From: a virus
Lineage: Duplodnaviria > Caudoviricetes
IMG/VR virus record: IMGVR_UViG_3300025120_000045
Coordinates: 1-62,240 of that record
Reading direction: 5' to 3' (one strand)
DNA length: 62,240 nt
Shown piece after piece: positions 14,319 to 55,575 of this stretch. How positions within the stretch are numbered: the stretch's first letter is position 1; each line of letters starts with the position of its first letter. The position numbers and the translations under genes were made by a program. The notes beneath the pieces are model-generated. The model saw only the letters and a program-made list of their open reading frames with translations. It had not been told where the DNA came from and made no database searches.

Positions 14319-14714
14319 ATGGCAGGAATTAACAACGTTGTTTATAAAGATTTCGATATCTTGTTTGATAGACATCCAGTTACAAGAAAGTTAAACACAT
14401 TAACAAATAATGCTGCAATTGCTCGATCTGTTAAAAATCTTATTTTAACAAATAAAGGTGAAAGACCTTATCAACCATTTATTGGTGGAGATGTAAGATC
14501 AAAACTATTTGAGTTAAATGATGGTACTGTTGAACAAGAAATAAAAGAAGCTATTGAAGATGCTATTAAAGAATATGAACCAAGAGCTGAATTAATTGAT
14601 GTATTTGCAGATCAAAATATAGATGGAAACAGTATCAATGTAACAATAAAATTTAGAGCTGTAAACCAAACAACACCAGTAGAAATACAATTTTTATTAG
14701 AGAGAGTTAGATAA
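14319..14714 (+). CDS. gp25: Baseplate wedge gp25
   Basis: YKD.D..F..HPVT, SVKNLILT..GERP..P..G, YEPR. Confidence 0.93.
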   Translation: MAGINNVVYKDFDILFDRHPVTRKLNTLTNNAAIARSVKNLILTNKGERPYQPFIGGDVRSKLFELNDGTVEQEIKEAIEDAIKEYEPRAELIDVFADQNIDGNSINVTIKFRAVNQTTPVEIQFLLERVR

Positions 14715-16591
14715 TGGCTGCAAATAGTGCTATAAGAGTTACAAATTTAAACTTTAATCAAATAAAGAATAATCTTAAAAGTTTTTTAAGAACAAAGCCA
14801 GATTTCACTGACTATGATTTTGAAGGAAGTGCATTATCTAATTTGGTAGATTTACTTGCATACAACACTTATCAACAATCAATTTATACTAACATGGTTG
14901 GCAATGAAATGTTCCTTGATAGTGCTCAGATAAGAAACAATGTAGTTGCTAGAGCTAAGATGGTTGGATATACTCCAACCTCAGCAAGAGGATCATCAGC
15001 AGTTATCAAAGCTGTAATAACACCTTCAACAAATGTAGCAAGTGTAACTATTGCCTCAAATACATTATTCACATCTACTATTGATGGAATATCTTATAAG
15101 TTTACAACAACAGAGCCCCATGTGTTAACACGAGGAGCTAGTTATACAAGTAATACTATTTCTATTAGTGAAGGTGAACCCTTAACACAAAAATTTACTG
15201 TTAACACTTCTACAGCCCAAAGATATATTCTTGATAATAATAATGTTGATACAACAAGTATTAAAGTTCAAGTTCAAACAAGTGCCGCTAATACATCAAA
15301 GATTACATGGTCACAAGCAAGTAATTTAGTAGATGTTCAAGCCAATAGTGCTGTATACTTTATTCAAGAAAATGAAGATGGAAAATATGAGTTGTTATTT
15401 GGTGATGATGTATTAGGCCAATCTGTAGATAATGGTAATATTGTAATATCAGATTACAGAGTTGTCAACGGTAGTGTTGTAAATGGTGCTAATAATTTTG
15501 TTGCTCCTGGATCACTAGGAGGACAATCTACATTTGCTGTAACAGTTGCAAGCTCAGCTACTGGTGGTGCTAATGCAGAAAGTGTAAATAGTATAAAATT
15601 TAATGCACCAAAAAGTTTCCAAAGACAAAATAGAGCAGTTATAAAAAATGATTATGCAAGAACATTATTAGCCGAAGCACCAGATCTTGCTGGAGCAAGT
15701 GTATGGGGCGGTGAAGATAATAATCCACCAATTTATGGTAAAGTTTATATTTCAGCTAAACCTAGTACAGGTAATATTTTATCTGATCAAAGAAAAGCTG
15801 AATTAATTTCTTTATTATCATCCAAGAATGTTGTAACTATTACACCAGAGTTTGTTGATGCTACATTCTTATACGTTGTTCCATCTGTAACAACAAGATA
15901 TAATAGTGGTGCAACAACGATAAGTGCTGGTCAAATATCTGATAAAATTAGTACAGCAATACTTAACTTTGAGACAAGCCAATTAAGTTTGTTTGATAAG
16001 AAGTTTAGAGAAAGTTCATTCATTGCAGCAATGGTTGCTGCAGATCAAAGTATATTGGGTGCGAATGTGACTTATAGAATGATGAAAAGATTTACTCCAA
16101 ATCAAAACATAACAACATCTTACAGCCTTGCATTTAATAATGGAATATTTAATCCACATGCTGGACACTATGGTGCTGTTAGTTCAACATCATTTACTTA
16201 TGAAGGTCAAACATGCTTCCTTGATGATAATGGAAATGGTATTTTAAGAATTTACTATTTAGATGTTAATAATGCAAAAGTTTATATTAACTCAAGTGCT
16301 GGTATAGTAAACTATAGTTCAGGATTAGTTACAATTAGTAGTGTTATTATAACAAGTTCTTCTACAATAGAAGTGAATTGTAAACCAGCAATTAATGATA
16401 TCTCTCCTACAAGAAATATGATTCTATTAATTTCAAAGGCATCCATTGTTGTTATAAATGATTCAACAGGAATTACAGAATCTAGTGTTTCTAATGTAAC
16501 AACAGCTGGTACAACAGAAACAACAACTAGTGAGACAAGTTCAATTCTATCTACAGGATCCACTGGCGGTGTTACTAATCTGGTGTACTGA
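14714..16591 (+). CDS. gp6: Baseplate wedge gp6
   Basis: FTDYDFEGSALS.L.D.LAYNT, EMFLDSA, FGD.VLG, IKFNAP, QNRAV...DY, WGGEDN.PP.YGKV. Confidence 0.95.
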   Translation: MAANSAIRVTNLNFNQIKNNLKSFLRTKPDFTDYDFEGSALSNLVDLLAYNTYQQSIYTNMVGNEMFLDSAQIRNNVVARAKMVGYTPTSARGSSAVIKAVITPSTNVASVTIASNTLFTSTIDGISYKFTTTEPHVLTRGASYTSNTISISEGEPLTQKFTVNTSTAQRYILDNNNVDTTSIKVQVQTSAANTSKITWSQASNLVDVQANSAVYFIQENEDGKYELLFGDDVLGQSVDNGNIVISDYRVVNGSVVNGANNFVAPGSLGGQSTFAVTVASSATGGANAESVNSIKFNAPKSFQRQNRAVIKNDYARTLLAEAPDLAGASVWGGEDNNPPIYGKVYISAKPSTGNILSDQRKAELISLLSSKNVVTITPEFVDATFLYVVPSVTTRYNSGATTISAGQISDKISTAILNFETSQLSLFDKKFRESSFIAAMVAADQSILGANVTYRMMKRFTPNQNITTSYSLAFNNGIFNPHAGHYGAVSSTSFTYEGQTCFLDDNGNGILRIYYLDVNNAKVYINSSAGIVNYSSGLVTISSVIITSSSTIEVNCKPAINDISPTRNMILLISKASIVVINDSTGITESSVSNVTTAGTTETTTSETSSILSTGSTGGVTNLVY

Positions 16592-18288
16592 TGGCTATTT
16601 CAAAAAAAGTCTCAACACTAATAAACACTCAAGTTCCAGAGTTTATCAGAACAGATGCTCCATTATTTAAATCTTTTGTTGAAGGTTATTACGAATTCTT
16701 AGAACAAGGTAATAATGTTTTAGACGAAAGTAGAAAACTTTTAGCTTATCAAGATGTAGACTCTTCAATAGACAAGTATATCGAGTATCTTAAAAGAGAA
16801 TTAATTCCAGATTTACCACAAACAACAGCTGCTAATACTCACATATTAATGAAGAGAGCTACTGACCTTTATAAGTCAAGAGGTAGTGAGAAAAGTTACA
16901 GATTGTTGTTCAGAGCTTTATATAATGAAGAGGTTGAAATATATGATCCAGGTGCAAGTATACTTAGAGCAAGTGATGGACGATATTCAAAAGAACAAAG
17001 TATAAGAGTTGGCGATCCATCATTAAGTAATACAGAATTATTACTTGGACAAACTATAACAGGATTAGTTAGTAATGCAACAGGTAAAGTAGAAAGATCA
17101 ACACAAACAGTTGAATCTGGATTCTTAGTTAGAGAATTATTTTTATCTAATGTGAGTGGTACTTTTCAAGATTTAGAATTAGTTAGAAATACTGCCAACA
17201 CTGTTAATGCAACAATTTATAATGTTACTGGTGTAATAACAAATGTAAATATTGTTGATAAAGGTGCTGGTCATGTTTTGGGAGATACCTTATCAATATC
17301 ATCTCCAACTTCAGTAAACTCAGCAATAGCAACTATTTCAGATACAGATAACTTTAGTGCTGTTCAATTTACAGTAACAGAAGGTGGTTCTGGATATACA
17401 GTATCAAATAATATAGTTGCTATTACACAAAATCAAGTTGGAGTTGGAGCTTCTTTTTATGTAAATTCAATAAGTAATACAGAAGTGTTGTTATTAGATG
17501 GAGATGATATATCTTCAGTTGCTAATGTACCACTAAACACAACTGGAGGTACAACTAACTCAAATACAAATACAGCTTTTGTAAGATTAGGTGCTAATAG
17601 TAGAGCAGTAAGTGCAAATTTAGCAACAGCCAATGTTAATAGTAAACTTGGAAATGCTTTAGCTTTTACAAATACAACAGTTGGATCTATTAATACTGTT
17701 TATCAAACGTCATATGGATATAATTATACTAATCTTCCTTCAGTATCAGTTAGAAATCCAGCTGTTGCAGAATTGAGAATTCCTGATCCAAATCAACCCA
17801 ATTCATTTAAAGGTAATAATGCTATTATAACTGCATCACATTTAGACGGAGCAGTTAAAGCTATCACAGTGACAGATGGTGGAACCAACTTTAACAAATA
17901 TGATACTTTAACTATTGATAATACTACAAGAACTCCTACTGCAAATGTAACTGGTTTACCATCAATTACTGGTATTAAATCTTATGAAGGAAAGTATACA
18001 GATACAAAAGGCTTTTTATCATGGAATAATAGATTACAAGATAATTATTTTTATCAAGTTTATAGTTATGTAATTAAATCAAATAATGCATTAAACAAAT
18101 ATAAGCAATTTGTAGATGATTTACTACATCCAGCAGGAACAAAAATGTTTGGTGAAGTAAGAACAATAAGTGTTGTATCAACACCAACAATATTAGTTAG
18201 TAATGTGAACTTAACAACTGGTAACACAACATTTGATAGTACAGTTCTTACATTTGATTCAAGTAATACAACATTTGACAAGTTTTAA
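16591..18288 (+). CDS. Baseplate wedge protein (gp7-like)
   Basis: Q.PEFIR, YYEFLE, YKSRGSE.SY.LLFR.LY, LQDNYFYQ.YSYVIKS, HPAGTKMFGE; C-terminal TFD repeats. Confidence 0.8.
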   Translation: MAISKKVSTLINTQVPEFIRTDAPLFKSFVEGYYEFLEQGNNVLDESRKLLAYQDVDSSIDKYIEYLKRELIPDLPQTTAANTHILMKRATDLYKSRGSEKSYRLLFRALYNEEVEIYDPGASILRASDGRYSKEQSIRVGDPSLSNTELLLGQTITGLVSNATGKVERSTQTVESGFLVRELFLSNVSGTFQDLELVRNTANTVNATIYNVTGVITNVNIVDKGAGHVLGDTLSISSPTSVNSAIATISDTDNFSAVQFTVTEGGSGYTVSNNIVAITQNQVGVGASFYVNSISNTEVLLLDGDDISSVANVPLNTTGGTTNSNTNTAFVRLGANSRAVSANLATANVNSKLGNALAFTNTTVGSINTVYQTSYGYNYTNLPSVSVRNPAVAELRIPDPNQPNSFKGNNAIITASHLDGAVKAITVTDGGTNFNKYDTLTIDNTTRTPTANVTGLPSITGIKSYEGKYTDTKGFLSWNNRLQDNYFYQVYSYVIKSNNALNKYKQFVDDLLHPAGTKMFGEVRTISVVSTPTILVSNVNLTTGNTTFDSTVLTFDSSNTTFDKF

Positions 18289-18296: not shown

Positions 18297-18312
18297 GGAT
18301 TAAGGAAAAAGA

Positions 18313-18522
18313 ATGGATAAATTTATAGCAAATTTAGATAGATTGAGAATATTTCCAAGATTATTCATAAGTGTATATATTTGGATGTTTTATGATGTGG
18401 TGCAATGGTTTATGATGTTAGAAGCACCTACAAATCAACAAGCTGGTTTAGTATCAATTATAGTTGGTGCTGGTGCAGCATGGTTTGGTTTATATGTTAG
18501 AACTTCAGGGAAAGACAAATAA
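18313..18522 (+). CDS. Small two-TM membrane protein (holin-like)
   Basis: 69 aa, two hydrophobic segments, basic C-terminus. Confidence 0.55.
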   Translation: MDKFIANLDRLRIFPRLFISVYIWMFYDVVQWFMMLEAPTNQQAGLVSIIVGAGAAWFGLYVRTSGKDK

Positions 18523-19583
18523 TGGCTAAACAAACAATAGGTATAGGAACAAGTGCTAATGACGGAACTGGTGATAGTGTCAGGGCCGGTGGTGATAAAG
18601 TAAACGATAACTTTACAGAAGTTTATAATGCATTAGGAAATGGAACAACAATTGCTGCAAATACAGGAACATTAGTTTCCAATGCTTATGCAGTCGCAAC
18701 ATATGCTGCAAATACTGCATTAACAGCAAAATTTAATACATTTGCCTTAGTTGCAAATGTTGCTGCATTAGCAGCATTAGCAAATACAAATAGTGCAATT
18801 GCAAAAAGAGCTGAAGTTGCAAACGTAGTAACCCTCGCAGCATTAGCAAATACAAATTTATCTATTGCAACAAAAGCTGCAGTAGCAAACGTAGCTGGTT
18901 TAGCAGCATTAGGAAATACAAATTCAAGAATTACATTATTGAACACAAATCTTACAGGTACAAATACAGCAATAAGAACACTTACACTTGATAGAGCTCA
19001 AGTTGCAAATGTAGCTGGACTTGCTGCATTAGCAAATACAAATTCAGGAGTAGCATTACTTAATACAAATCTAATAGCTACTAACACAGCAATAAGACTA
19101 TTAGTTAGTGATAGATCTCAAGTTGCAAATGTGTTCTCAATATTCAGTAGTGGTAAAAGTTATTCAACAGTACCAAATTATGGTGCAGCAGTAACATATG
19201 ATATATCTGCAAATGGATCTAATGCTTATATTGTTTCTAATATGGGTTTTGGTAAAGGAGGTGCAGCTTTTAATAATCCTGAATTGACTGTAAGAAATGA
19301 AACAACTATTGCATTTGACTTAAATGGTTTAGGTGGAGCTCATCCATTTGCTATAAGAAGTGGTGATTCTGGTTCAAGTGTTTTTTCAAATACGTTGATC
19401 CATGTTGCAACTTCTGGTACAATAACTACAGGAGCAAGTGCTCAAGGAAAAGTAGAAGGAGTTTTATATTGGCAAATACCACACGACATAGTTTCATCTG
19501 GGAGAAATTCATATACATATTATTGTCAAAGTCATGCAGCTATGAAAGGCAACGTTAATATCAAAGATACTGGAGCAATCTAA
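18522..19583 (+). CDS. gp9/gp10-like baseplate fibre with coiled-coil repeats and a C-terminal cupredoxin-like domain
   Basis: MAKQ.I.IG..ANDGTGD..R.GG.K.N.NF.EVY N-terminus; VANV..LAALANTN repeats; HPF...YYCQSHAAM. Confidence 0.75.
   Translation: MAKQTIGIGTSANDGTGDSVRAGGDKVNDNFTEVYNALGNGTTIAANTGTLVSNAYAVATYAANTALTAKFNTFALVANVAALAALANTNSAIAKRAEVANVVTLAALANTNLSIATKAAVANVAGLAALGNTNSRITLLNTNLTGTNTAIRTLTLDRAQVANVAGLAALANTNSGVALLNTNLIATNTAIRLLVSDRSQVANVFSIFSSGKSYSTVPNYGAAVTYDISANGSNAYIVSNMGFGKGGAAFNNPELTVRNETTIAFDLNGLGGAHPFAIRSGDSGSSVFSNTLIHVATSGTITTGASAQGKVEGVLYWQIPHDIVSSGRNSYTYYCQSHAAMKGNVNIKDTGAI
18750..19135 (+). repeat. Coding tandem repeats (two 22-aa units, then two 40-aa units)
   Basis: VANVxxLAALANTN recurs; the 40-aa unit matches the repeats at 48522-48900. 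Confidence 0.8.
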
Positions 19584-21124
19584 TGCCAGCTGTATCAACT
19601 AAGAGGCTGTCATATCATATAGCAGATCAATTTAAAGAATCATTTAGTGAAACTGATCCTTCAAGATTATATGTTTTTGTTGGAAGAAGTAGTCCATATG
19701 CAAATGATTCTTCTGCATCTACACCAACTGACACAGTACAAAAACAAGATTACAATATTTACAAACAAATGCTTGCTGCAAAAAAAGTTCAAGAGACTGA
19801 TGTAACTTATGCAATAAGAAGATACAATTGGGCAAACAATATTGGTTATACAGAGTATACAAATACCAATACTAATTTGTATACTAGTCAATTTTATGTT
19901 TATACTACAGATAATAATGTTTATAAATGCTTGTTTAATAATAAAGGTGCAAACTCAACAGTTATGCCAACAGGAACAAGTACAGGTTTACTACAAACAT
20001 CTGATGGATATCAATGGAAGTATATGTATTCTGTTAGTACAGCTGATATTGGTAAATATGTAACAGCTGACTATCTTCCTGTAAAAGTTGTAACAACAAA
20101 TGATAGTTCAGGACAGTTTACTGTTCAACAAGCTGCTGTTAATGGAGCTATTCAAGTCGTTGATGTAACAGCTGGTGGAGTTGGATATCAAACAACAAAT
20201 GGTGTATTTGGAACAGTTAGTAATTCAACAGTTATGACATTAGCATCAACTGCTAGTGCAAATGATGGTGTTTATATTGGAAGTACTTTATATATTTCAT
20301 CAGGCCTTGGTGCAGGATTAATAAGAGAAGTAACTTCATATACAGGATCATCAAAAAGTGTAACAGTTAACACTGCATTCTCAACATCACCAAATACAAC
20401 TTCTAGGTACATTGTAAGTCCAAAAGTAACTATTGCTGGAGATGGTACAGGAGCAACTGCATTTGCAAATGTTACAGATGGAGCAAGTTCAGTAAATTAT
20501 ATTACAATGATTAGTACAGGATCAAAATATAGTAATGCAACAATAACAATTTCAGCTAACACAACTTATGGTACAGGAGCAACTGCAGTACCATATATTT
20601 CACCAAGAAATGGACATGGATCCAATGCAAGAGAAGAATTAGGTGGAAGTTTTATAATGTTGGCTACAGAATTTAATGGAACAGAATCAAACACTATTTC
20701 AACTACAAATGATATAAGAACATTTGGATTAATTAGAGATCCACTCACATCTACAGGTGCTGTTGCAAATACAGGAAACTTTGATATGACAACAAGATTG
20801 ACATTGAGTGGTGCTACAGGAGACTTTACACAAGATGAATTAATTACAGGTGGTACAAGTGGAGCGACTGGTAATGTGGTTAGTTTTAGTAATACAAATT
20901 CAGCCAATTCAACAGGCACGCTTAGAGTGATAAATATAACGGGAAGGTTTCAGAACAATGAAGTTATTACTGGATCAGCTTCGAGTAAGACTGCAACGGT
21001 ACGACCAGCATCAAATTCGGACTTGAGTTTTTATAAAGGTGATGTATTATATACAGAAAATATATTACCAATTACAAGAGCAACAGATCAAATTGAGAAT
21101 TTTAAGATAATATTTAGTTTTTAG
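19583..21124 (+). CDS. gp8: Baseplate wedge gp8
   Basis: LYVFVGR..P, RRYNW, FYV.T..NVYKCL.NN, DGYQWKYMY, GHGSNA..ELG, I.R..DQ.E..KII..F. Confidence 0.9.
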   Translation: MPAVSTKRLSYHIADQFKESFSETDPSRLYVFVGRSSPYANDSSASTPTDTVQKQDYNIYKQMLAAKKVQETDVTYAIRRYNWANNIGYTEYTNTNTNLYTSQFYVYTTDNNVYKCLFNNKGANSTVMPTGTSTGLLQTSDGYQWKYMYSVSTADIGKYVTADYLPVKVVTTNDSSGQFTVQQAAVNGAIQVVDVTAGGVGYQTTNGVFGTVSNSTVMTLASTASANDGVYIGSTLYISSGLGAGLIREVTSYTGSSKSVTVNTAFSTSPNTTSRYIVSPKVTIAGDGTGATAFANVTDGASSVNYITMISTGSKYSNATITISANTTYGTGATAVPYISPRNGHGSNAREELGGSFIMLATEFNGTESNTISTTNDIRTFGLIRDPLTSTGAVANTGNFDMTTRLTLSGATGDFTQDELITGGTSGATGNVVSFSNTNSANSTGTLRVINITGRFQNNEVITGSASSKTATVRPASNSDLSFYKGDVLYTENILPITRATDQIENFKIIFSF

Positions 21125-21132: not shown

Positions 21133-24100
21133 ATGGCAGATATAAGTAACACAGTTTCGTATTCAACAGATCTAAATGTGGATCCGTATTATGATGATTA
21201 CAATGAAGAAAAGAATTTTCACCAAATACTTTTTAGACCTGGTCTAGCAGTTCAAGCTAGAGAGTTAACTCAACTACAAACAATACTACAAAAACAAACT
21301 TCAAGATTTGGAGCTCATATATTTAAAGAAGGTACTATTGTTTCTGGTGGATCTAAACAACTAAAAATTGGTATTCCTTTTGTAAAAATAACAGATAAAG
21401 ATAATGGTAATAATGCCTTAACTATGACAACATTAGTTGGTAGTACAGTTACCGGTGGTACAACAGGAGTTACAGCAGAAGTTATTGCTACAGTATCAGG
21501 TGTTCAAACTGCAGCTAATACAAACACGTTATATGTAAAGTATACAAATTCAGGTACAAATAAAACAACAAAAACATTTAGTGCTGGTGAAGTATTATCA
21601 TTCGTATATGCTAATACAGGAACAGCTAATGCAACAGTTGCTTCATCTGCAAATACACCAACAGGTAATGGTGTATTCTTCCAATTATCAGATGCTTTAG
21701 TATTTGCTAAAGGTCAATTTATTTTACATTCTAATTCTGGTATAGTAGTAGAAAGATATAATGAAACACCAAGTCAAAGAATTGGTTTCAAAGTAAATGA
21801 AAATATAATAACAAGTAATACAGATACAACATTATTAGATCCTGCTCAAGGTTCATATAACTATACAGCACCAGGTGCTAATAGATTAAAATTATCAACA
21901 GAATTAAATATATTACCATTATCAGTAACTGGTGATGCACCAGCATCTAATGGTTTCTTTGAATTATTAAATTTAGATAATGGATTAAGAGCTGAAGAAG
22001 CTAAACAACCAGATTATGCTGACCTTGGTCAAGAAATGGCAAGAAGAACATTCCAAGAGAGTGGTCATTATACAACAAAAGCATTTAAGTTTAATGTTAG
22101 AGAAAATTTAATTGATGGAACAAACTTAGGTTTAAAAACATCAGCTGCAGGCGGTGATGCTAATACATTATCAGTTGGTATAGAAGGTGGTCATGCTTTT
22201 GTAAAAGGTTTTGAATATGATTATGAGAATATAGATACAATTTATGTTGATGTTGCAAAAGGTACAAATACACAATTATACGAATCAATTTCTACTACAC
22301 CAAACTATGGACAATTTGTTTTAGCTAATGAAGTATCAGGTGTATTGGATCCAACTAATTTACCAGAGGTAAGTTTAAGAAATGCTGCTGCAAAATCACA
22401 CACAAATAAAACATTTGATAATACAGCATCTCCTGGATCTCAAATAGGTACAGCAAGATTAAGAATGATATCACAACATGCTGGTAATACAGATACAGCT
22501 GGTGGTCAATTTAAATTACATCTTGGAGAAATAAAATTAACTTCAGGTCAATTTGCAAATGTTAAATCATTTTATATTGCAAATGCAGTATCAGGAGCAA
22601 GTAAAAACTTCTTAGCTGATGCTGTATTAACAAGTGCTAATTCAACATTCCTTGGTAATGCAACATTAAATGAACCTACCAATGATTCATTGGTTTACAG
22701 TTTACCATTTAAAGGTGTTAAAACTATTAGAGATGATAGTAATAGTGTTGAAACATCATTTCAATTTAAAAAATCATTTGATATTACAATTGCTACAAAT
22801 GGTACAGCATCAATTGCAACAGGAGCATCTGATCATCAATTTACAACTACAGGAACACTAAGTGCTTCACAAAAAGATAGCTTAGTAACATTAGTTGCTA
22901 AAAATCAAGTAACAAGTACTCAATTAGGAACAGTTTTAGCTAATAGTACAACAACAACTGTTACAGGAACAGGAACAAAATTTAATTTATTAAAAGCTGG
23001 TGACAGAGTAAGATTAGGACCATCTAATATATTTACAGTTAATGCTGTAACAAGTAATGTTGCCATGTCTATTACAACAACTCCAACTGCAGCTCAAAAT
23101 GTTGCAAGTGGTAATGCTATATCTAAAGTTATTGAAAGTGGTCAACTAGTTGATTTATCAATGACAGGTACAGGTGGCAATGGAGCTGACAGAACATTTA
23201 CTATTAGTTCAACAACAGCTGCTGCATTAGATATTAAAGAAACTCTTAATACAACTTTAGCTGCAACAGCAATTGTAACTTTAAATAAAGTGAATGCAAG
23301 AGAAGCTGCTAAATCATTATCTGCAAATGTGTTTGTTAGAATTAATCCAAATACACATTTTAATAAAACTGGTAATGGACCATATCCATTAGGAGTAACA
23401 GATGCTGTTAGATTAAGAAAAGTTTATATGTCAACATCTAATGTTGTTGTAGCAAACACATCTGGAACAACAGATATTACATCAAGATACAAATTAGATA
23501 GTGGTATGAAGGCTGGTCGTTATGATATTGCTAGTATCATACTTAAAGCTGGTCAGACAGCTCCAACAGGACAGTTATTAGTTAATTTTGATCATTTCAA
23601 ACACAGTTCTTCATTGGGACAAGGTTATTTTAGTGTTGATAGTTATCCTGTAGATGATACAAAAGGTACAAATTCAATAACATCTATAAAAACATTTGAG
23701 ATTCCAATTTATACAAACCCATCAACTGGTGATGAATATAATTTAAGAAATAGTATTGATATTAGACCTAACAAAGCTAATACAGCTAATCCTACAACAA
23801 CCATTAGTTCGTCTCCAATAAATCCTGCTAACAGTTCTTCGTACACTGTTGCTGGTGATGGTCAGTTTTTACCAATAACTGGTCAGAATATATTGAAAGA
23901 CTTACAAATATATCTTGGTAGAACAGATAAGATTGTTGTTAATGAAGATGGAAGAATAGTAATAAAAACTGGTATATCAAGTGAAGCAAAAATTCCACCT
24001 ACTGTTGGATCAGATGAAATGACTCTTGCTGTATTAGATATTCCACCATATCCTTCAATATCTCCATTTGTTGCTAAAATTAATGAAAGAGAAGATCTTC

Positions 24101-31126: not shown

Positions 31127-31130
31127 GAGC

Positions 31131-31472
31131 ATGGCAAGTAATTTCGACGTAAAAACATCAAGAGCTGTAGGTACAACAGCTGCCAGAATTGGTAGTTATA
31201 CAGTAGCCTCAGGAACAAAAACAACAGTGATAGGATTAACATTAGCTAATGTAACTAATACTGCAATCACAGCAACCGCTTTCCATAGTAGTCATACGAA
31301 TAATGGATCGAACACACATTTAATTAAAGCCGCACCAATTCCAGCTGGCTCATCATTAGTTGTAGTTGGTGGTGATCAGAAAGTAGTTTTGGCAAATGTA
31401 CATGGTATCTTTGTTCAAGCTAATACAGCAAGTTCACTTGATGCGGTTATGTCAATTCTCGAGGTAACGTAG
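31131..31472 (+). CDS. Small beta-rich structural protein
   Basis: YTV.SG..T.VIGL.LAN, IP.GSSL.V.GG..KVVL, D...SILE.T; typical partner of AFxIALG proteins. Confidence 0.65.
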   Translation: MASNFDVKTSRAVGTTAARIGSYTVASGTKTTVIGLTLANVTNTAITATAFHSSHTNNGSNTHLIKAAPIPAGSSLVVVGGDQKVVLANVHGIFVQANTASSLDAVMSILEVT

Positions 31473-32304: not shown

Positions 32305-32332
32305 AGGGCATAAATAAAGGTAAGGAAAAAAT

Positions 32333-47047: not shown

Positions 47048-49283
47048 CATCAAAAATGCTAAGGTCCTTGCTACATCACTAGCATTTACTAAACAAGAAA
47101 TTAAAAAACTTAGAGCTGATTTTAGTAACTACAAACTAAATGAAGATAAATTACCTCGTGGTCCAAAAGGAGATATTGGACCTCAAGGACCTAAAGGCGA
47201 ATCTGGTCCAGATAGAAAAATCATAATAGAAGCAAAAGGTCCTGTTGGACCAAAAGGAGATAAAGGTGAAGCTGGTAGAGCTATCAATGCAGCTTTTATT
47301 GAAGAAGGTAAATTACACTTAAATTACACAGATGGAGAAACAGCTGATATTGGATCTATTGTAGGTCCAAGAGGTGGTCAAGGTATACCAGGACAAAAAG
47401 GTGAAAGAGGATTAATTGGTGAAGAAGGAAAACAAGGATCTAAAGGTGAAGTAGGACCACGTGGTACTATTGGACCAAGAGGATTACTTGGTGAACAAGG
47501 ACCAATTGGACCAATAGGACCAATTGGATTACAAGGCGATAAAGGAGAAAAAGGTGATAAAGGTGAACAGGGTGAACCCGGTATACAGGGCATACAAGGA
47601 CTACAAGGACTTATCGGACCGAGAGGCGAGACGGGCGAGCGAGGTACAATTGGGCCACAAGGATTACAAGGACCTAGTGGAAAAGATGGTACGTCGGTAG
47701 ATCTTAAACCTCTTAAAGACGAATTAACAGTTGATCTACAATCTTTTAAAAATAATATAAGTGCAAGTATAACTAGAAGAAACTTAGCAAGTAGTGGTGC
47801 TGGTGGTGGTATAGGACCAAGACCTAAAACAACATTACATGTTAGAGATATACTTCCAGAGTCAAATGTAACATTTAATTTAGGATCCGAAGAAAAAAGA
47901 TTTAAAGATTTATTCTTATCTGGTAATACATTATCTCTTGGAGCAACAGAAATAAAAGCATCTGCAGATGGTGGTATTGAACTACCTGCAGTTGAAGCTA
48001 ATACAATGTTGGTGATGAACCCAGCTAGTTATCAACTTTTTACAACTAAAGTAATTACTAAAACATCTGCTCATCCATATACTGGTCAAGGTTCAAGTTT
48101 AGCTTATTCAATAAACGGTAAAGAGTCACCTTCATTAATTCTTGTACCAAATATGACTTACAGGTTTGATCAATCTGATAGTTCAAATGGAAGTCATCCA
48201 CTAAGATTTTACAAAGATGCAGCTAAAAGTACATCTCATACTACAGGTGTAACAACAAATGGAACACCTGGATCAGCAGGCGCTTATACACAAATAGTTA
48301 TAACAGAAACTACACCAACAGTATTCTATCAATGTTCTTCTCATGCACATATGGGAAGTGTTGCGACTACAACAGTAGGTACAATACAACAACAAGATAT
48401 AACAAACGCTGTTAATGATTTAATAGATGCAGCTCCATCACAACTTAATACGTTAAATGAGTTAGCTGCTGCATTAGGAGATGATGCTAATTTTGCTACC
48501 GCAATTACCTTATTAATTAATGACAGAGCACAGGTTGCAAATGTTGCTTCATTAGCTGCATTAGCAAATACAAATTCAGGAATAGCATTACTTAATACAA
48601 ACTTAGTTGGATCCAACACAGCACTTAGAACATTAATTAGTGATAGAGCTCAAGTTGCTAATGTTGCAAGTTTAGCTGCACTTGCTAATACTAATCTAGC
48701 TATTGGTAATCTAAACACTAACTTAACTGGAAGTAATACTGCATTAAGATTATTAATAAACGATAGAGCACAAATTGCGAATGTTGCTTCTTTGGCTGCT
48801 TTAGCGAATACAAATGCAGCAATAGGAAATTTAAATACAAATCTTGGAGGTACTAATACAGCTATAAGAACTTTAGTTAGTGATAGATTACAAGTTGCAA
48901 ATGCTTCAGCTACTTTTACTACAAAAGCATATGCAGCTGCTAACTCATATGTTAATTCTACATTTGTTAAACCAGATGCAACAAATATAAGTTTTTCTGG
49001 ACAATCAGTAACAATCACTGGTAACTTAATAGTGCAAGGTACAACCACACAAACAACAACTTCAAGTTCAAATGTTGAGAGTGCATTTATGATACTTAAT
49101 GCTGGTTTAGATGGAACACCAAGTAATGATGCTGGTATAAAAGTAAATAGAGGAAATCAAGCAAATGTTGAAATAAGATTTAACGAAACAGGAAATAAAT
49201 TTGAATTTACTAACGACGGTACAACATTTAATGAGCTAGGATCTGTTAGTGATTCGTTAGCTTTTGCTATAGCTTTGGGATAA
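47037..49283 (+). CDS. Collagen-like fibre with cupredoxin-like domain and 40-aa coiled-coil repeats
   Basis: Long G-X-Y runs, LGSEEKRFKDLFLSG, HPLRF...YQCSSHAHMG, TLNELAAALGDDANF, C-terminal AFAIALG. Start is probably 47037 (track 47019). Confidence 0.8.
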   Translation: MENDIKNAKVLATSLAFTKQEIKKLRADFSNYKLNEDKLPRGPKGDIGPQGPKGESGPDRKIIIEAKGPVGPKGDKGEAGRAINAAFIEEGKLHLNYTDGETADIGSIVGPRGGQGIPGQKGERGLIGEEGKQGSKGEVGPRGTIGPRGLLGEQGPIGPIGPIGLQGDKGEKGDKGEQGEPGIQGIQGLQGLIGPRGETGERGTIGPQGLQGPSGKDGTSVDLKPLKDELTVDLQSFKNNISASITRRNLASSGAGGGIGPRPKTTLHVRDILPESNVTFNLGSEEKRFKDLFLSGNTLSLGATEIKASADGGIELPAVEANTMLVMNPASYQLFTTKVITKTSAHPYTGQGSSLAYSINGKESPSLILVPNMTYRFDQSDSSNGSHPLRFYKDAAKSTSHTTGVTTNGTPGSAGAYTQIVITETTPTVFYQCSSHAHMGSVATTTVGTIQQQDITNAVNDLIDAAPSQLNTLNELAAALGDDANFATAITLLINDRAQVANVASLAALANTNSGIALLNTNLVGSNTALRTLISDRAQVANVASLAALANTNLAIGNLNTNLTGSNTALRLLINDRAQIANVASLAALANTNAAIGNLNTNLGGTNTAIRTLVSDRLQVANASATFTTKAYAAANSYVNSTFVKPDATNISFSGQSVTITGNLIVQGTTTQTTTSSSNVESAFMILNAGLDGTPSNDAGIKVNRGNQANVEIRFNETGNKFEFTNDGTTFNELGSVSDSLAFAIALG
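47155..47690 (+). repeat. Collagen (Gly-X-Y) coding repeats
   Basis: GPKGDIGPQGPKGE...GEQGPIGPIGPIGLQGDKGEKGDKGEQGEPGIQG. Confidence 0.9.
48522..48900 (+). repeat. 120-bp (40-aa) tandem repeat, about 3 copies
   Basis: DR(A/L)Q(V/I)AN units start at 48522, 48642, 48762 and 48882. Confidence 0.85.
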
Positions 49284-49310
49284 ATAGATAAATAAAAGTA
49301 AAGGACAATT

Positions 49311-50168
49311 ATGGGCGGTTTATCAAGAATTAGATTAGATGGTATTGCAAACAATGCTGTCGCAAATACCAATATAGTAGATGGTGCTGTAGGCGCTGCC
49401 GAAATAGCAACAGGTGCTGTAAAAGCAACTGAAGTTGCTGCAGGTGGTATTGCAGCTAATACAGCTTTTGGTTCAGGAGTAATAACAGCACATGCTATTG
49501 CAACTGGTAATGTTGGAAAAACAGAATTAAGATCAAGTGATCTTTTAACAGCTAATACACAATTCAATGCAGGTATTATTACAGCACATGCTATTGCAAC
49601 AGGCGCAGTAGGACCAACCGAGTTAGCAACAGGTGCAGTAAGTGCAAATACTAAAATAGCTGCAAATATAATAGATGCAAGTAATATAAAAGCTGGTGCT
49701 GTTGGAGCATCAGAATTAGCAACAGGTGCAGTAAGTGCAAATACTAAAATGGGTGCTGATGTAGTTGGTGCCAGAGAACTTAGAATAGGTAATGTAGCTG
49801 CAGCAAATGGAGTTTTTACTCATAACAGTGCAACATATGCTAAAGCTCAATTAGGTAGAGTTGAGAGTGTAACTGTTGGTGGTGCAAACGTGACTATAGA
49901 TTTTGCAAATGCAAACATATTTAATTTGACACTTGGTGCAAGTACAAGATTAGGAAGACCAGCCAACGTTGCAGTTGGTCAAGCAGGAACAATATTTGTG
50001 ACGCAGGACGGAACTGGATCCAGAACATTGAGTTATTCAACAGTGTGGGATTTTATTGGAGGTACAGCTCCAACATTAACAACAACTGCAGCTGGTGTTG
50101 ATAGAATTGATTATGTAGTATATTCAACAGCAAGAATCCAAGCAGTCGCCTCACTAGCTTATAGTTAG
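49311..50168 (+). CDS. Fibre protein paralogous to 32333..33535
   Basis: Shares long near-identical segments (GAVGPTELA...ELRIGNVAAANGVFTHN) and the C-terminal adaptor domain. Confidence 0.8.
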   Translation: MGGLSRIRLDGIANNAVANTNIVDGAVGAAEIATGAVKATEVAAGGIAANTAFGSGVITAHAIATGNVGKTELRSSDLLTANTQFNAGIITAHAIATGAVGPTELATGAVSANTKIAANIIDASNIKAGAVGASELATGAVSANTKMGADVVGARELRIGNVAAANGVFTHNSATYAKAQLGRVESVTVGGANVTIDFANANIFNLTLGASTRLGRPANVAVGQAGTIFVTQDGTGSRTLSYSTVWDFIGGTAPTLTTTAAGVDRIDYVVYSTARIQAVASLAYS

Positions 50169-51296: not shown

Positions 51297-51915
51297 ACAA
51301 ATTATAGAAAAAGCTAAAGTAAACGTCGGTGGTCCTTCTGCTGATTATGCTATAGCCAACTATCAAGATGATGATGATGAGGCAAAAGATATTAAGCCAA
51401 GAAGTCAAGGAGAAGTTGACTTTAGAGATAAACATACAATTACAACAACAAAACATCCTGTAGCTGAGCCTGGACAATCAGGACCTGCTACAACAAAGCA
51501 TGCTGGTGATCATAAAGGTCACGATGGTGAGCCAGGAGAAAGAGAAGTTGTTAAGTCTAAAGGTAAAACATTCAAAGAGTTAAGAGCAACAAAGAAAGCT
51601 ATTGCAACAGCCAAAGCAAACAAATCTGCTGGTGAAATGCAAATGAAAAAAATTAAGGAAGAAGTTGAAGAAGTTGAAGATCTTGATGAGAATGTAATGG
51701 TAAGGATAAAGATGAAGAATATTGCTAAAAGCAAAACACCAGTTAGTTATAAATTTAAAAATGGTAAATCAATGACAGTTGATCCAGACCAAGCAAAAAT
51801 GATTCATAAAGCATTACAAGGTGTTAAAGGTCCAAGTTTAAAAGCAATGTCAAATGACATAATGTCTAGCCCAGCTGGCTTTATGAAGGCACTTGCATTT
51901 GCGGAGAGAAAATAA
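51283..51915 (+). CDS. Putative prohead core protein (gp68-like position)
   Basis: K/E-rich with KEE/LDE cleavage-like sites. Start is probably 51283 (track 51232). Confidence 0.5.
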   Translation: MLKFKQIIEKAKVNVGGPSADYAIANYQDDDDEAKDIKPRSQGEVDFRDKHTITTTKHPVAEPGQSGPATTKHAGDHKGHDGEPGEREVVKSKGKTFKELRATKKAIATAKANKSAGEMQMKKIKEEVEEVEDLDENVMVRIKMKNIAKSKTPVSYKFKNGKSMTVDPDQAKMIHKALQGVKGPSLKAMSNDIMSSPAGFMKALAFAERK

Positions 51916-52283
51916 TGGCTACAAAAATAACAGTAAATCAAAATAATGGAACATTGGTACTGCAAGCAAATACAGCTGGTTTTGTAAATTTAGGTACTGG
52001 TGTGGCAGGAACGTCAAAAGCAAACAATGCTGGAGAAACAGTTACAGGAATGACTATTAGAGAAGTATTCTGGACACAAAAAGATGGAAATGTTTCTGCT
52101 AATACTTGGTTGATCAAAAGAGGTGCTAATACAGTATTAGTATGTCCTGGCAATTCAGGTCATTTCAAGTTTGACGGAATGCAAATAGAGAATTCATTTG
52201 AAAAAGCATCTAATGTAAATTTTGTAACTACCGGACTTGGTACGTTAATACTTAAACTAAAGAAAACATCTGGAGAGGTATAA
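51915..52283 (+). CDS. Hypothetical head-associated protein
   Basis: Beta-rich 122-aa ORF coupled to gp21; rich in ANT motifs. Confidence 0.55.
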   Translation: MATKITVNQNNGTLVLQANTAGFVNLGTGVAGTSKANNAGETVTGMTIREVFWTQKDGNVSANTWLIKRGANTVLVCPGNSGHFKFDGMQIENSFEKASNVNFVTTGLGTLILKLKKTSGEV

Positions 52284-54134: not shown

Positions 54135-54192
54135 ATATTAATTAAATGAAAAGGCTGACTTTTCTAAACTTTAACAATAAAAGGAATAAAAA

Positions 54193-55575
54193 ATGTCTTA
54201 TTTAACAGAAGAGCTAGTGAAAAAATGGCAGCCAGTTCTTGAACATGGGGACCTAGATCCAATCAAAGATCCTCACAAGCGTCAGGTTGTTGCCACTTTA
54301 CTAGAAAACCAAGAAAATGCAGCTAGAGAACAAGCTGCTCAATCAGGAGGAATGAACCCTAGTTTATTAGGGGAAGCGGCTCCTGCTAACGCAATGGGTG
54401 CATCAAGCTCAACTGCCAGTGATGGTTCAGTTGATATATTTGACCCAGTACTTATTTCACTTGTAAGAAGAAGTATGCCAAACCTTATTGCATATGATAT
54501 CTGTGGTGTCCAGCCAATGACTGGTCCAACAGGTCTTATCTTTGCTTTAAGAAGTAGACTTCAAGATCAAACAGGTTCTGAAGCATTATTCAACGAAGCT
54601 AATACTTCTCATTCAGCTATCGGTTCACAAGCTGCAAATACATCTAACTTCGGTGGTGTACTTGACGGTGCTGTAGGTACTGACCAAGCTGGATCAGATC
54701 CAACTTCAAGAGCTTCTGGTTCTGGTTACACACTTCACCAAGGTATGTCAACGGCAACAGGTGAAGCATTAGGTGATGCTGCTGCTAACTCATTTGCTGA
54801 GATGGCTTTCTCTGTAGAGAAGGTTTCAGTAACTGCTGTTACTAGAGCGTTAAAGGCTGAATACACTATGGAACTTGCTCAAGACTTAAAGGCAGTTCAT
54901 GGTTTAGATGCTGAGACAGAACTTTCAAACATCCTATCTGCTGAGATCTTAGCTGAGATCAACAGAGAAGTTGTAAGAACAATTAACTATACAGCTACTG
55001 CTGGTGCTCAAACAAACACATCTGCTGCTGGAACATTTGACTTAGATGTTGACAGTAATGGTAGATGGTCTGTTGAGAGATTTAAAGGTATGATCTTTCA
55101 AATTGAAAGAGAAGCTAACCAGATCGCTAAAGCTACAAGACGTGGTAAAGGTAACGTAATGATCTGTGGATCAGATGTTGCTTCTGCAATGCAAATGGCT
55201 GGCGTTCTTGATTATGCTCCTGCATTATCTGCTAATTTGAATGTTGATGATACTGGTAATACATTTGCTGGTGTACTTAACGGAAGAATTAAGGTATATG
55301 TAGATCCATACTTCTCAAGCGCAGCTGGTTTACAGTATGCTACAATTGGATATAAAGGATCTTCTGCATTTGATGCTGGATTATTCTACTGTCCATATGT
55401 ACCGCTACAAATGGTAAGAGCAGTTGGTGAGAACACATTCCAACCTAAGATCGGTTTTAAGACTAGGTACGGAATTGTTGCTAACCCATTCGGTACTTCA
55501 AGTGCTGATGGTGCAATTGCATTCGGAAAACCAAACTTATATTACAGATTTGTAAAAATAAGTAACTTAATGTAA
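54193..55575 (+). CDS. gp23: Major capsid protein gp23
   Basis: KW.PVL, LLENQE, DPVLISLVRRSMPNLIAYDICGVQPM, ELAQDLKAVHG, FYCPYVPL, FQPKIGFKTRYG. Confidence 0.99.
   Translation: MSYLTEELVKKWQPVLEHGDLDPIKDPHKRQVVATLLENQENAAREQAAQSGGMNPSLLGEAAPANAMGASSSTASDGSVDIFDPVLISLVRRSMPNLIAYDICGVQPMTGPTGLIFALRSRLQDQTGSEALFNEANTSHSAIGSQAANTSNFGGVLDGAVGTDQAGSDPTSRASGSGYTLHQGMSTATGEALGDAAANSFAEMAFSVEKVSVTAVTRALKAEYTMELAQDLKAVHGLDAETELSNILSAEILAEINREVVRTINYTATAGAQTNTSAAGTFDLDVDSNGRWSVERFKGMIFQIEREANQIAKATRRGKGNVMICGSDVASAMQMAGVLDYAPALSANLNVDDTGNTFAGVLNGRIKVYVDPYFSSAAGLQYATIGYKGSSAFDAGLFYCPYVPLQMVRAVGENTFQPKIGFKTRYGIVANPFGTSSADGAIAFGKPNLYYRFVKISNLM

What the first reader, a model, noticed from the sequence alone, without database searches (positions are those of the whole stretch)
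14714..55575. Pervasive [AS]-N-[TSV] motif across unrelated virion proteins: possible modification sequon
Seen by eye, not counted: ANT/SNT/ANS/ANV recur densely in gp6, gp7, gp8 (FSNTNSANST, SANTT, VANTG), VrlC (AANTNT, YANTGTANAT, VVANTS), the fibres, the 31131 and 51915 proteins (QANTA, SANTW, GANTV), gp18 and gp23 (EANTS, AANTS). They are scarce in gp32, gp17, UvsW and the acyl-CoA dehydrogenase. These proteins have different folds, so a fold-specific repeat does not explain it. An Asp/Asn beta-hydroxylase-like enzyme and two more 2OG oxygenases lie within this cluster. Inference: a virion-wide Asn-centred sequon for hydroxylation and/or glycosylation, forming a surface coat.
Basis: partly seen in the sequence, partly recalled or inferred. 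Interest (0 to 1): 0.72.

Follow-up and report, generated by a model that had tools for sequence, protein, structure and literature searches.

The report
Virion-wide Asn tripeptide motif, clade-specific
The particle proteins of this marine T4-like phage and its relatives, some of them cultured, carry far too many copies of the short motif Ala/Ser-Asn-Thr/Ser/Val with an almost unchanging Asn, which looks like an attachment site for a still unknown protein modification and can be tested by mass spectrometry.

Summary
In ORFs of 14714-55575, [AS]N[TSV] occurs 125 times against 44-49 in composition-preserving and local shuffles. A-N-T is the most over-represented of all tripeptides: 52 vs 10.1, and 37 vs 8.6 after masking fibre repeats. 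The signal is protein-level, not DNA-level.

It is confined to virion proteins and to one clade of T4-like phages: the window's relatives, four further IMG/VR genomes, and cultured phages DLP6, Cr30 and phiM7. It is absent from HTVC008M, three cyanophages, T6, G002 and G003.

The motif Asn is kept in 318 of 322 site-by-relative cells, against 74% for other Asn. Yet the sites lie in variable segments, and 245 of 293 site columns are private to one genome. This is sequon-like behaviour.

The proposed link to the adjacent Asp/Asn hydroxylase and 2OG oxygenases is not supported. A clade-specific GT-A glycosyltransferase, encoded just beyond the window's right end in a close relative, is a better but phylogenetically confounded candidate. 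No modification has been shown.

The parts
14714..16591 (+). gp6 baseplate wedge; 7 [AS]N[TSV] (3.8 expected)
   Evidence: PHROG 219, E 6e-158; counts
16591..18288 (+). gp7-like baseplate wedge protein; 12 motifs (2.6 expected), 5 AN[TV]
   Evidence: PHROG 17744
18522..19583 (+). Baseplate-fibre connector-like protein; 11 motifs, mostly inside a tandem repeat 'VANVxxLAALANTN'
   Evidence: PHROG 677; repeat family of 14 members shared with the 47019 protein
19583..21124 (+). gp8 baseplate wedge; 9 motifs (2.7 expected)
   Evidence: PHROG 438
21133..26058 (+). VrlC-like large virion protein; 20 motifs (5.1 expected). Of 11 aligned AN[TV] sites (10 of them in the window's own copy), 7 are identical in all 11 aligned relatives
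   Evidence: PHROG 358. AF2 model of residues 1-520 places all 9 motif Asn outside beta-strands
26070..26693 (+). Asp/Asn beta-hydroxylase family enzyme; carries no motif itself and does not co-vary with the motif
   Evidence: PF05118, E 1.7e-9, above cut-off
29503..30616 (+). Two 2OG-Fe(II) oxygenases (29503-30111 Oxy_5; 30098-30616 Oxy_3, the prolyl-hydroxylase-like family)
   Evidence: distribution in other genomes
30650..31472 (+). Two small motif-rich proteins of unknown family (30650-31126: 8 motifs; 31131-31472: 4 motifs)
   Evidence: the 31131 protein has a 52% identical relative in G001
31474..33535 (+). Two tail-fibre proteins; the 32333 protein has a 31-residue repeat 'ELATGAVSANTKMG..VITA'
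   Evidence: PHROG 18673; repeat family
42742..44742 (+). gp18 tail sheath; ANT at residues 61, 103 and 269. Sites 103 and 269 lie in the middle part that does not align to solved sheath proteins
   Evidence: PHROG 23
47019..50168 (+). Collagen-like fibre (47019-49283, 13 motifs, 40-residue repeats) and a second fibre (49311-50168, 7 motifs)
51915..52283 (+). 122-residue protein just upstream of the gp21 protease gene; 4 motifs (0.5 expected)
   Evidence: homologues at the same place in G005 and DLP6
54193..55575 (+). gp23 major capsid protein; ANT at residues 136 and 148
   Evidence: PHROG 138

Best explanation
[AS]-N-[TSV] (core A-N-T / A-N-V) is a short linear motif that selection keeps at high density on the particle proteins of one clade of T4-like phages. 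I read it as an acceptor site for a post-translational modification of the Asn side chain.

I think cytoplasmic N-glycosylation by a phage-encoded enzyme is the likeliest chemistry. The leading candidate is the clade-specific GT-A glycosyltransferase (PHROG 1574), encoded about 12 kb beyond the window's right end in a close relative. On this reading the adjacent Asp/Asn hydroxylase is not the responsible enzyme.

Shown: the enrichment; its restriction to virion proteins and to one clade; the near-invariance of the Asn among close relatives; and the turnover of positions among distant ones.

Inferred: that the Asn is modified, what the modification is, and which enzyme makes it. Confidence 0.4 applies to 'a modification sequon of some kind'; glycosylation specifically is about 0.25.
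For: 1. Order-specific enrichment that survives local shuffles and repeat masking.

2. Protein-level signal. GCNAAYACN occurs 52 of 53 times in frame 0 within the region, with 4 hits on the other strand. Codon usage in the motif resembles the background. The enrichment is seen at genome G+C of 33 to 56%.

3. Restricted to virion genes in long or complete genomes.
- G001: structural 110 vs 43.4, rest 46 vs 36.8.
- G005: 66 vs 37.1, rest 32 vs 33.6.
- DLP6: 87 vs 39.1, rest 44 vs 39.5. Cr30: 99 vs 45.9, rest 32 vs 33.0.

4. Same seven orthologous proteins compared across 13 genomes. ANT observed/expected is 2.6-6.1 in the eight motif-positive genomes and 0.5-2.0 in the five others.

5. Motif Asn is kept in 318 of 322 cells against 74.2% for other Asn, 87% for Gly and 92.5% for Trp.

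6. Sites lie in poorly conserved segments. Local identity to motif-negative outgroups is 0.174, against 0.288 for other Asn (Mann-Whitney p 9e-7), with more gaps. Only 9% of outgroup residues at those columns are Asn, and 245 of 293 site columns are private to one genome.

7. All 9 motif Asn in the AF2 model of VrlC 1-520 fall outside beta-strands, which cover about 36% of the model (my count; site positions read).

8. Candidate enzyme.
- Among genes present in at least 3 motif-positive genomes and in none of HTVC008M, G003 and part of G002, the only non-structural one is a roughly 270-300-residue protein.
- It is also in G006, G008, G009 and in G010, a contig 90% identical to the window in the 60201 gene.
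- It has an invariant D-S-D and a GT-A fold. Best Foldseek matches are the STIV A197 glycosyltransferase, collagen galactosyltransferase, Mnn9 and ppGalNAc-T2.
- Prediction made before the test: cultured phages carrying it should show the motif. This held in 3 of 3, weakly in phiM7.

9. Precedent. Chlorovirus capsid proteins carry N-glycans at NTGT, NTET, NTAT, NVAT and NIPG, and how those glycans are attached is still an open question (passages of PMC9614988; PMC7318305).
Against: - No modification is shown by any computation here.
- The motif-positive genomes form one clade in a FastTree of gp17+gp18+gp20+gp23 (support 0.93 for seven of them, 0.67 with G001 included). Motif and glycosyltransferase therefore share a single origin, and their co-occurrence counts as about one event.
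- Two other genes of unknown function show the same clade pattern.
- The glycosyltransferase sits in replication or nucleotide-metabolism modules. G001 and G005 also carry a TET-associated DNA glycosyltransferase, so DNA could be its substrate.
- Cyanophage ACG-2014f has a 28% identical homologue and no enrichment.
- The signal is weak in phiM7 (z 3.4-3.6). For the broad motif it is only 1.30-fold in G007.
- Several virion proteins of the window are not enriched.
- The motif-rich 51915 protein sits where T4 has prohead-core genes (gene order recalled, not tested), which does not fit a purely external coat.
- Five of the nine modelled sites lie in tight turns or directly before a strand, which also fits a structural capping role.
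- There is no extended consensus. The +3 Thr/Gly of the chlorovirus sites is not enriched.
Confidence: 0.4

Rival explanations
1. Unmodified structural micro-motif. A small residue, an Asn that caps or turns the chain, and a beta-branched residue that starts a strand. It arose in an ancestor of this clade, spread through fibre repeats and loop remodelling, and is kept because each Asn stabilises its local turn.
For: About a third of the instances come from fibre repeats. HTVC008M has a fibre repeat with ANV. In the VrlC model, Asn 129 and 344 directly precede strands and Asn 161, 174 and 201 lie in short inter-strand turns. Some shared sites have Asp, Ser or Thr in outgroups, as Asx/ST turns would: gp23 site 136 has ADS and ADT, and gp6 site 192 has SNT, SDT and QST.
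Against: A general structural preference should appear in all T4-like phages, but ANT is at expectation in HTVC008M, S-RIM32, P-TIM68, T6 and ACG-2014f. Outgroups have Asn at only 9% of the site columns. It does not explain why the density is held while positions turn over, with 245 of 293 columns private.
Confidence: 0.33
2. One reading: Asn beta-hydroxylation (with or without later glycosylation) by the Asp/Asn hydroxylase-like enzyme at 26070-26693 and the two 2OG oxygenases at 29503-30616.
For: The enzymes lie inside the structural module. The cluster is kept in those close relatives whose contigs reach it: 6 loci have the 26070 homologue and 4 have the two oxygenases. G007, which has the ANT excess, has a PF05118 gene.
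Against: PF05118 is absent from complete motif-positive G001, and also from G005 and G008, which are about 70% complete. It is present in motif-negative G002 and is described as core to all pelagimyophages (PMC7029224 passages). No cluster enzyme has a BLASTP relative in G001 or G005. Oxygenase number is highest in motif-negative HTVC008M. Cupin_8 (FIH-like) is absent from all five genomes searched. The Oxy_3 enzyme has a more obvious possible substrate in the collagen-like fibre.
Confidence: 0.07
3. A recognition motif without covalent change, for example docking sites for a decoration protein, a chaperone or an environmental ligand.
For: It fits the virion restriction, the loop location and the Asn constraint.
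Against: A bare tripeptide with no extended consensus is a poor binding determinant. No candidate partner emerged: the two other clade-specific genes have no known function.
Confidence: 0.1
4. Artefact of A/N/T-rich composition, of repeats, or of a DNA-level motif.
For: The enriched proteins are rich in A, N, S and T. Repeats inflate the raw count.
Against: Local shuffles in blocks of 8 residues still give only 49 against 125. Masking repeats leaves z 9.8. Permuted orders are not enriched. The DNA motif is frame-restricted. The signal is seen at 33-56% G+C.
Confidence: 0.03

Closest known systems
Atypical N-glycosylation sites of chlorovirus major capsid proteins (PBCV-1 Vp54 and relatives)
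   Same: Asn is followed directly by Thr, Val or Ile (NTGT, NTET, NTAT, NVAT, NIPG). The proteins are virus particle proteins. The glycosylation is virus-encoded rather than host ER-based, and how the glycans are attached is an open question. My recollection that the residue before Asn is Ala or Gly comes from no call. A PBCV-1 protein of unknown function (Q98454) is among the structural neighbours of the candidate glycosyltransferase (E 7e-9, TM 0.55/0.66).
   Different: Here no glycan is shown. The +3 Thr/Gly is not enriched. The host is a bacterium. The motif is spread over many particle proteins, not only the capsid.
Canonical N-X-S/T sequon (oligosaccharyltransferases; cytoplasmic HMW1C-type N-glycosyltransferases)
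   Same: An Asn-centred acceptor in loops. HMW1C-type enzymes act in the cytoplasm (recalled).
   Different: N-x-[ST] is not enriched in the window (210 vs 218.7). Here the hydroxyl or beta-branched residue is at +1, not +2.
Mycobacteriophage virion O-glycosylation (recalled; no paper on it was read here)
   Same: Phage-encoded glycosyltransferases decorating capsid and tail proteins.
   Different: That system is O-linked on Ser/Thr-rich tails. Here Asn is the invariant residue and Val is accepted at +1, so Thr is not the target.
Asp/Asn beta-hydroxylation by AspH in EGF domains, or by FIH in ankyrin repeats
   Same: An Asn-directed 2OG oxygenase family member (PF05118) lies in the cluster.
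   Different: The Cys-flanked EGF consensus (recalled) is not seen in the site contexts. No Cupin_8 gene is present. The enzyme does not co-vary with the motif.
Asn layers of trimeric coiled coils and Asn ladders of beta-helices in fibres (recalled)
   Same: The fibre repeats place AN[TV]/NT at regular spacing.
   Different: The spacing is 9 residues, not 7. This can only account for the repeat-derived third of the sites, not for gp6, gp8, VrlC, gp18 or gp23.

Membership tests
Canonical N-glycosylation sequon N-X-S/T | Excess of Asn-x-Ser/Thr (x not Pro) in the target proteins | tested here: not met
   210 observed vs 218.7 expected in the window's ORFs
Chlorovirus-type atypical N-glycan site | Asn followed directly by Thr, Val or Ile | tested here: met
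   ANT 37 vs 8.6 and ANV 19 vs 6.0 after repeat masking; ANI 4 vs 4.8 is not enriched. Site list from PMC9614988
Chlorovirus-type atypical N-glycan site | Thr or Gly at +3 (NTxT, NIPG) | tested here: not met
   No residue is enriched at +3 (p<0.01 threshold) among 56 AN[TV] or 99 [AS]N[TSV] sites
Chlorovirus-type atypical N-glycan site | Beta-glucose linked to the Asn side chain | not testable with these tools
   Needs mass spectrometry or NMR of virion proteins
AspH-type Asp/Asn beta-hydroxylation | PF05118 catalytic domain present | tested here: met
   ORF 26070-26693, E 1.7e-9, 38.2 bits, cut-off 22.6
AspH-type Asp/Asn beta-hydroxylation | Enzyme and substrate motif occur together across genomes | tested here: not met
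   Absent from motif-positive G001 (complete), G005 and G008; present in motif-negative G002. Described as core to all pelagimyophages
FIH-type Asn hydroxylation | JmjC/Cupin_8 hydroxylase present | tested here: not met
   PF13621: 0 of 5 genomes, the window included
GT-A glycosyltransferases (candidate enzyme, PHROG 1574; lies outside the window) | Rossmann-like GT-A fold with a DxD metal/nucleotide-sugar motif | tested here: met
   Invariant D87-S88-D89 in 6 homologues. AF2 mean pLDDT 70.7. Foldseek hits to GT-A enzymes from E 1.8e-7. Pfam Anp1 only below cut-off
GT-A glycosyltransferases (candidate enzyme) | Acceptor is protein Asn rather than DNA, lipid or sugar | not testable with these tools
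   Its genomic context is replication or nucleotide metabolism, so a DNA substrate remains possible
Fibre repeat or fold-specific motif | All instances derive from repeated homologous segments | tested here: not met
   51 of 80 AN[TV] instances are singletons by flank identity. Enrichment persists after masking

The most novel reading that the evidence does not exclude
A whole clade of T4-like phages, marine uncultured lineages plus cultured phages of Caulobacter, Sinorhizobium, Ochrobactrum and Stenotrophomonas, N-glycosylates its capsid, sheath, baseplate and fibre proteins in the host cytoplasm. The acceptor would be a non-canonical A/S-N-T/S/V sequon resembling the unexplained chlorovirus sites, and the enzyme a phage-encoded GT-A. 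The glycan coat would be maintained by selection while individual sites turn over.
Probability: 0.25. Interest if true: 0.9.

Novelty: new variant of a known kind. Interest (0 to 1): 0.72.

Why it matters
If the Asn is modified, this would be a virion-wide, sequon-directed protein modification in tailed phages of Gram-negative bacteria. It would use a sequon unlike N-X-S/T. It could also point to the kind of enzyme behind the still unexplained chlorovirus Asn-glucose linkage.

It would affect how particle stability, adsorption, grazing or immune recognition of these phages is understood. It would also give cytoplasmic glyco-engineering a new acceptor site.

Because the same signal is present in cultured phages (Cr30, phiM7, DLP6), the question can be tested directly with existing material. 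If the Asn is unmodified, the finding is still an unusual case of a clade-specific, selectively maintained tripeptide in many unrelated folds.

Tried and rejected
- DNA-level motif: rejected by frame restriction and background-like codon usage.
- Composition or repeat artefact: rejected.
- D-for-N analogue in other phages (ADT, SDT and similar): not enriched.
- Extended consensus around the tripeptide: none found.
- Avoidance of the motif in non-virion proteins: not seen (G001 rest 46 vs 36.8).
- Co-occurrence with PF05118, 2OG-FeII_Oxy_3, 2OG-FeII_Oxy_5 and Cupin_8: none.
- gp23-centred loci from IMG/VR: 80 loci held too few motif-bearing genes to classify most genomes.
- ACG-2014f as an independent contrast for the glycosyltransferase: it has only a 28% identical homologue and no enrichment, so the result is uninformative or negative.
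- Ochrobactrum phage vB_OspM_OC: classified in the same family, with the gene beside the sliding clamp, so it is not an independent test. Not pursued.
- PDB sequence search with the glycosyltransferase: no match.
- The second clade-specific gene (PHROG 11903): no family, and it looks basic and helical in alignment. Not folded.
- Literature searches for phage virion N-glycosylation or this motif: the listings showed nothing relevant. Only listings were seen, apart from passages of PMC7029224. Supplements were not available.


Full report
**What the window is.**
It is a 62-kb fragment of a T4-like marine myovirus with 32% G+C. CheckV estimates it at 33% complete. PHROG and Pfam scans give this order:
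- gp25, gp6, a gp7-like protein, a fibre-connector-like protein, gp8, and a 1641-residue VrlC-like protein;
- a small enzyme cluster: PF05118 Asp/Asn hydroxylase family, a short-chain-dehydrogenase-like ORF, an unknown ORF, a VrlC C-terminal-like protein, and two 2OG-Fe(II) oxygenases;
- several fibre genes, then gp13-gp20;
- two more fibres, one of them collagen-like;
- three small ORFs, then gp21, gp22, gp23, gp3, UvsY and UvsW.

The nearest cultured phage by gp6 is Pelagibacter phage HTVC008M, at 43.5% identity.

- [AS]N[TSV] occurs 125 times in the ORFs of 14714-55575. Shuffles that keep each protein's composition, or the composition of blocks of 30, 15 or 8 residues, give 44-49. The maximum of 500 shuffles was 81. 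Outside the region the count is 6 against about 8.
- In a scan of all tripeptides, ANT is first (52 vs 10.1, z 14) and ANV follows (26 vs 6.7). The other five orders of A, N and T occur 7-18 times.
- 29 of the 80 AN[TV] instances belong to four families of repeated sequence, mainly tandem repeats in four fibre-like proteins. The raw count therefore overstates the effect.
- After masking those repeats ANT is still the top tripeptide (37 vs 8.6, z 9.8). ANV is 19 vs 6.0, SNT 15 vs 8.4 and ANS 11 vs 6.9.
- No further position shows a strong preference.
- The canonical N-x-S/T pattern is not enriched (210 vs 218.7).

**It is a protein-level signal.**
The DNA word GCNAAYACN occurs 52 of 53 times in the reading frame, with only 4 hits on the opposite strand within the region. 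Codon choice inside the motif is close to that of the same genes elsewhere. The same enrichment appears in relatives with 36-56% G+C.

**It is specific to virion proteins and to one clade.**
- Structural modules of HTVC008M, cyanophages S-RIM32 and P-TIM68, and coliphage T6 have ANT at expectation: 8/8.5, 9/7.0, 8/7.4 and 4/4.3. HTVC008M's ANV excess comes mostly from repeated fibre segments.
- The IMG/VR relatives with 70-78% identical VrlC show roughly 3- to 6-fold ANT excess. The exception is one 1.3-kb fragment with a single ANT.
- So do more distant genomes. In G001 (complete, 163,885 bp) structural genes give 110 vs 43.4 and the rest 46 vs 36.8. In G005 the figures are 66 vs 37.1 and 32 vs 33.6.
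- G007 shows ANT 24 vs 6.7 and G008 shows 170 vs 94.4 for the broad motif. G002 is not enriched, at 24 vs 29.6.
- Seven orthologous proteins (gp6, gp7, gp8, VrlC, gp18, gp20, gp23) were compared in 13 genomes. ANT observed/expected is 2.6-6.1 in eight genomes and 0.5-2.0 in five.
- In a FastTree of gp17+gp18+gp20+gp23 the eight enriched genomes form one group. Local support is 0.93 for seven of them and 0.67 once G001 is included. The group is sister to HTVC008M plus the cyanophages.
- An IQ-TREE run on fewer taxa left G001 unresolved.

**The Asn is constrained, but the positions are not old.**
- The relatives are 70-76% identical to the window in VrlC and 83-98% identical to each other. Across them the motif Asn is unchanged in 318 of 322 site-by-relative cells.
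- For comparison, other Asn are kept at 74.2%, Gly at 87% and Trp at 92.5%. The flanking residues are also above average.
- The cells are not independent, because the relatives form essentially one sister group.
- Against motif-negative outgroups the sites lie in the least conserved parts of the proteins. Local identity is 0.174, against 0.288 for other Asn and 0.293 overall. Local gap fraction is 0.236 against 0.15.
- At the site columns the outgroups have Asn in 9% of cases.
- Among the eight enriched genomes, 245 of 293 site columns are private to one genome, 37 are shared by two, 10 by three and 1 by four. Misalignment in variable regions inflates this figure somewhat.
- Alignments show gains at different places in the window and in G001 within gp18, gp8 and gp6.
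- High density, short-term constancy and long-term turnover are what one expects of a sequon kept by selection on the number of sites. They are not expected of a residue dictated by the fold.

**Structural context.**
- An AF2 model of VrlC residues 1-520 was built from 19 sequences (mean pLDDT 68.8). It places all nine motif Asn outside beta-strands.
- The nine Asn are residues 6, 129, 161, 174, 201, 229, 344, 476 and 503, read. Eight are in coil and one in a short helical turn.
- About 36% of the model is strand (my count from the element list).
- Two sites directly precede a strand and three sit in short inter-strand turns. Two sites (6 and 503) lie in segments with pLDDT below 50.
- In gp18, sites 103 and 269 lie in the middle region that does not align to solved sheath proteins. 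Site 61 lies in the conserved N-terminal part.
- Solvent exposure itself could not be computed with these tools.

**The hydroxylase idea.**
The cluster is kept in those close relatives whose contigs reach it.
- Across genomes the link fails. PF05118 is absent from complete, motif-positive G001 and from G005 and G008. It is present in motif-negative G002 and in G007.
- None of the five cluster enzymes has a BLASTP relative in G001 or G005.
- HTVC008M has 13 and 18 matches to the two oxygenase families and no ANT excess. G001 has a single match, far from its structural genes.
- Passages of PMC7029224 describe the aspartyl/asparaginyl beta-hydroxylase as core to all pelagimyophages.
- The Oxy_3 (prolyl-hydroxylase-like) enzyme has an obvious alternative substrate in the collagen-like fibre at 47019-49283.

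**A better candidate enzyme.**
- I searched for genes found in at least three enriched genomes and in none of HTVC008M, G003 and the fetched part of G002. This returned structural proteins and one non-structural protein of about 270-300 residues.
- That protein is also in G006, G008 and G009, and not in G002 or G004.
- It lies in contig G010, which is 90% identical to the window in the 60201-61742 gene. There it sits about 12.4 kb downstream of that gene, beyond the window's end.
- It has an invariant D-S-D and a weak Pfam Anp1 match. Its language-model neighbours are named 'Anp1 family' and 'nucleotide-diphospho-sugar transferase'.
- Its AF2 model (pLDDT 70.7) has as best PDB neighbours the STIV A197 glycosyltransferase, collagen hydroxylysine galactosyltransferase, Mnn9 and polypeptide GalNAc-transferases. 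TM-scores are 0.4-0.6, which amounts to generic GT-A similarity.
- In the viral structure library a PBCV-1 protein of unknown function is among the nearest named hits.
- tblastn found the gene in cultured phages DLP6 (56%), Cr30 (51%), vB_OspM_OC (49%) and phiM7, phiM12 and phiN3 (45%).
- I then predicted that these phages would show the motif. They do:

| Phage | ANT, virion genes | [AS]N[TSV], virion genes | [AS]N[TSV], rest of genome |
|---|---|---|---|
| DLP6 | 29 vs 8.5 | 87 vs 39.1 | 44 vs 39.5 |
| Cr30 | 21 vs 6.5 (SNT 33 vs 8.8) | 99 vs 45.9 | 32 vs 33.0 |
| phiM7 | 16 vs 7.0 | 54 vs 34.5 | 37 vs 40.4 |

  The [AS]N[TSV] motif is not enriched in the rest of any of these genomes.

**Limits of that candidate.**
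- All carriers belong to the one enriched clade, so this is one evolutionary event.
- With four complete enriched genomes against HTVC008M, G003, ACG-2014f and the fetched part of G002, two more genes of unknown function share the pattern.
- The glycosyltransferase itself passes that filter only if a 28% identical homologue in ACG-2014f is set aside. ACG-2014f shows no enrichment.
- The gene lies beside nrdAB or beside the clamp and recombination genes. G001 and G005 also carry a TET-associated glycosyltransferase. A role in DNA modification is therefore a live alternative.
- G001 additionally has fucosyltransferase, GDP-mannose dehydratase, sugar aminotransferase, acetyltransferase and radical-SAM genes. 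None of these is shared with the window's 62 kb.

**Comparison with what is known.**
- The nearest precedent is the chlorovirus capsid protein. Its N-glycans sit on Asn in NTGT, NTET, NTAT, NVAT and NIPG, not N-X-S/T, and how they are attached is still an open question (passages of PMC9614988; PMC5408694; PMC7318305).
- The +1 Thr/Val matches. The +3 Thr/Gly does not. The Ala/Gly at -1 is my recollection only.
- Searches of the paper library for phage virion N-glycosylation or for this motif returned nothing relevant in their listings. Supplements were not available.

**Verdict.**
It is a clade-wide, virion-restricted, selectively maintained Asn tripeptide.

| Reading | Confidence |
|---|---|
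| Modification sequon (glycosylation about 0.25 of this) | about 0.4 |
| Unmodified structural turn motif | about 0.33 |
| Recognition motif without covalent change | about 0.1 |
| Hydroxylation by the adjacent enzymes | about 0.07 |
| Artefact | about 0.03 |

Mass spectrometry on virions of Cr30, phiM12/phiM7 or DLP6 would decide between these.

Noticed in passing
window 47019-49283 and 30098-30616: The 754-residue fibre has long collagen-like G-x-y runs with Pro mostly after Gly. A prolyl-4-hydroxylase-like 2OG-FeII_Oxy_3 gene lies 16 kb upstream. Hydroxyproline in the fibre is a simpler role for that oxygenase than Asn hydroxylation.
   Followed up: no
window 30650-31126 and 47019-49283 (C-termini): Two otherwise different proteins end in nearly the same heptapeptide, AFSIALG and AFAIALG. 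It may be a shared attachment or assembly tag.
   Followed up: no
window 18522-19583 and 47019-49283: The shared repeat 'RAQVANVASLAALANTNxxIxxLNTN' places Asn every 9 residues, not every 7 or 11 as in ordinary coiled coils.
   Followed up: no
window 51027-52283: Three small ORFs sit between the fibres and the gp21 protease gene, where T4 has prohead-core genes (recalled). Two are highly charged. The third (51915-52283) is beta-rich with 4 motifs in 122 residues and has homologues at the same place in G005 and DLP6.
   Followed up: partly
G001 (L032:10864-19851; L030:4-2773): The complete relative G001 has an enzyme island between gp13 and its fibres: three radical-SAM proteins (one with a SPASM domain), a GNAT acetyltransferase, a DegT sugar aminotransferase and an ATP-grasp-like protein. 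It also has a GT10 fucosyltransferase and GDP-mannose dehydratase/epimerase matches on two proteins; the fucosyltransferase lies at the genome start, the other two were not placed.
   Followed up: partly
G005 (L123:18102-19502) and G001 19787-20779: A TET-associated glycosyltransferase (PF20691, E 2.4e-39) is shared by two enriched genomes, together with ThyX and a dCMP-deaminase-like gene. This suggests glycosylated hypermodified DNA in this clade.
   Followed up: no
L001 (HTVC008M) 18145-28905: Four large hypothetical proteins of HTVC008M share a repeated segment 'TTAxTFSGANVTIAGNLTV', which explains most of that phage's ANV excess.
   Followed up: yes
window 1316-4095: Auxiliary genes beside the replication genes: a NifU-like Fe-S scaffold (E 1e-52), a cell-wall hydrolase and a redoxin/AhpC-like protein.
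   Followed up: no
window 26070-27240: The PF05118 ORF and the next ORF (short-chain-dehydrogenase/FabG-like, weak) overlap by 62 bases in different frames. Start-site choice for the second ORF is uncertain.
   Followed up: no
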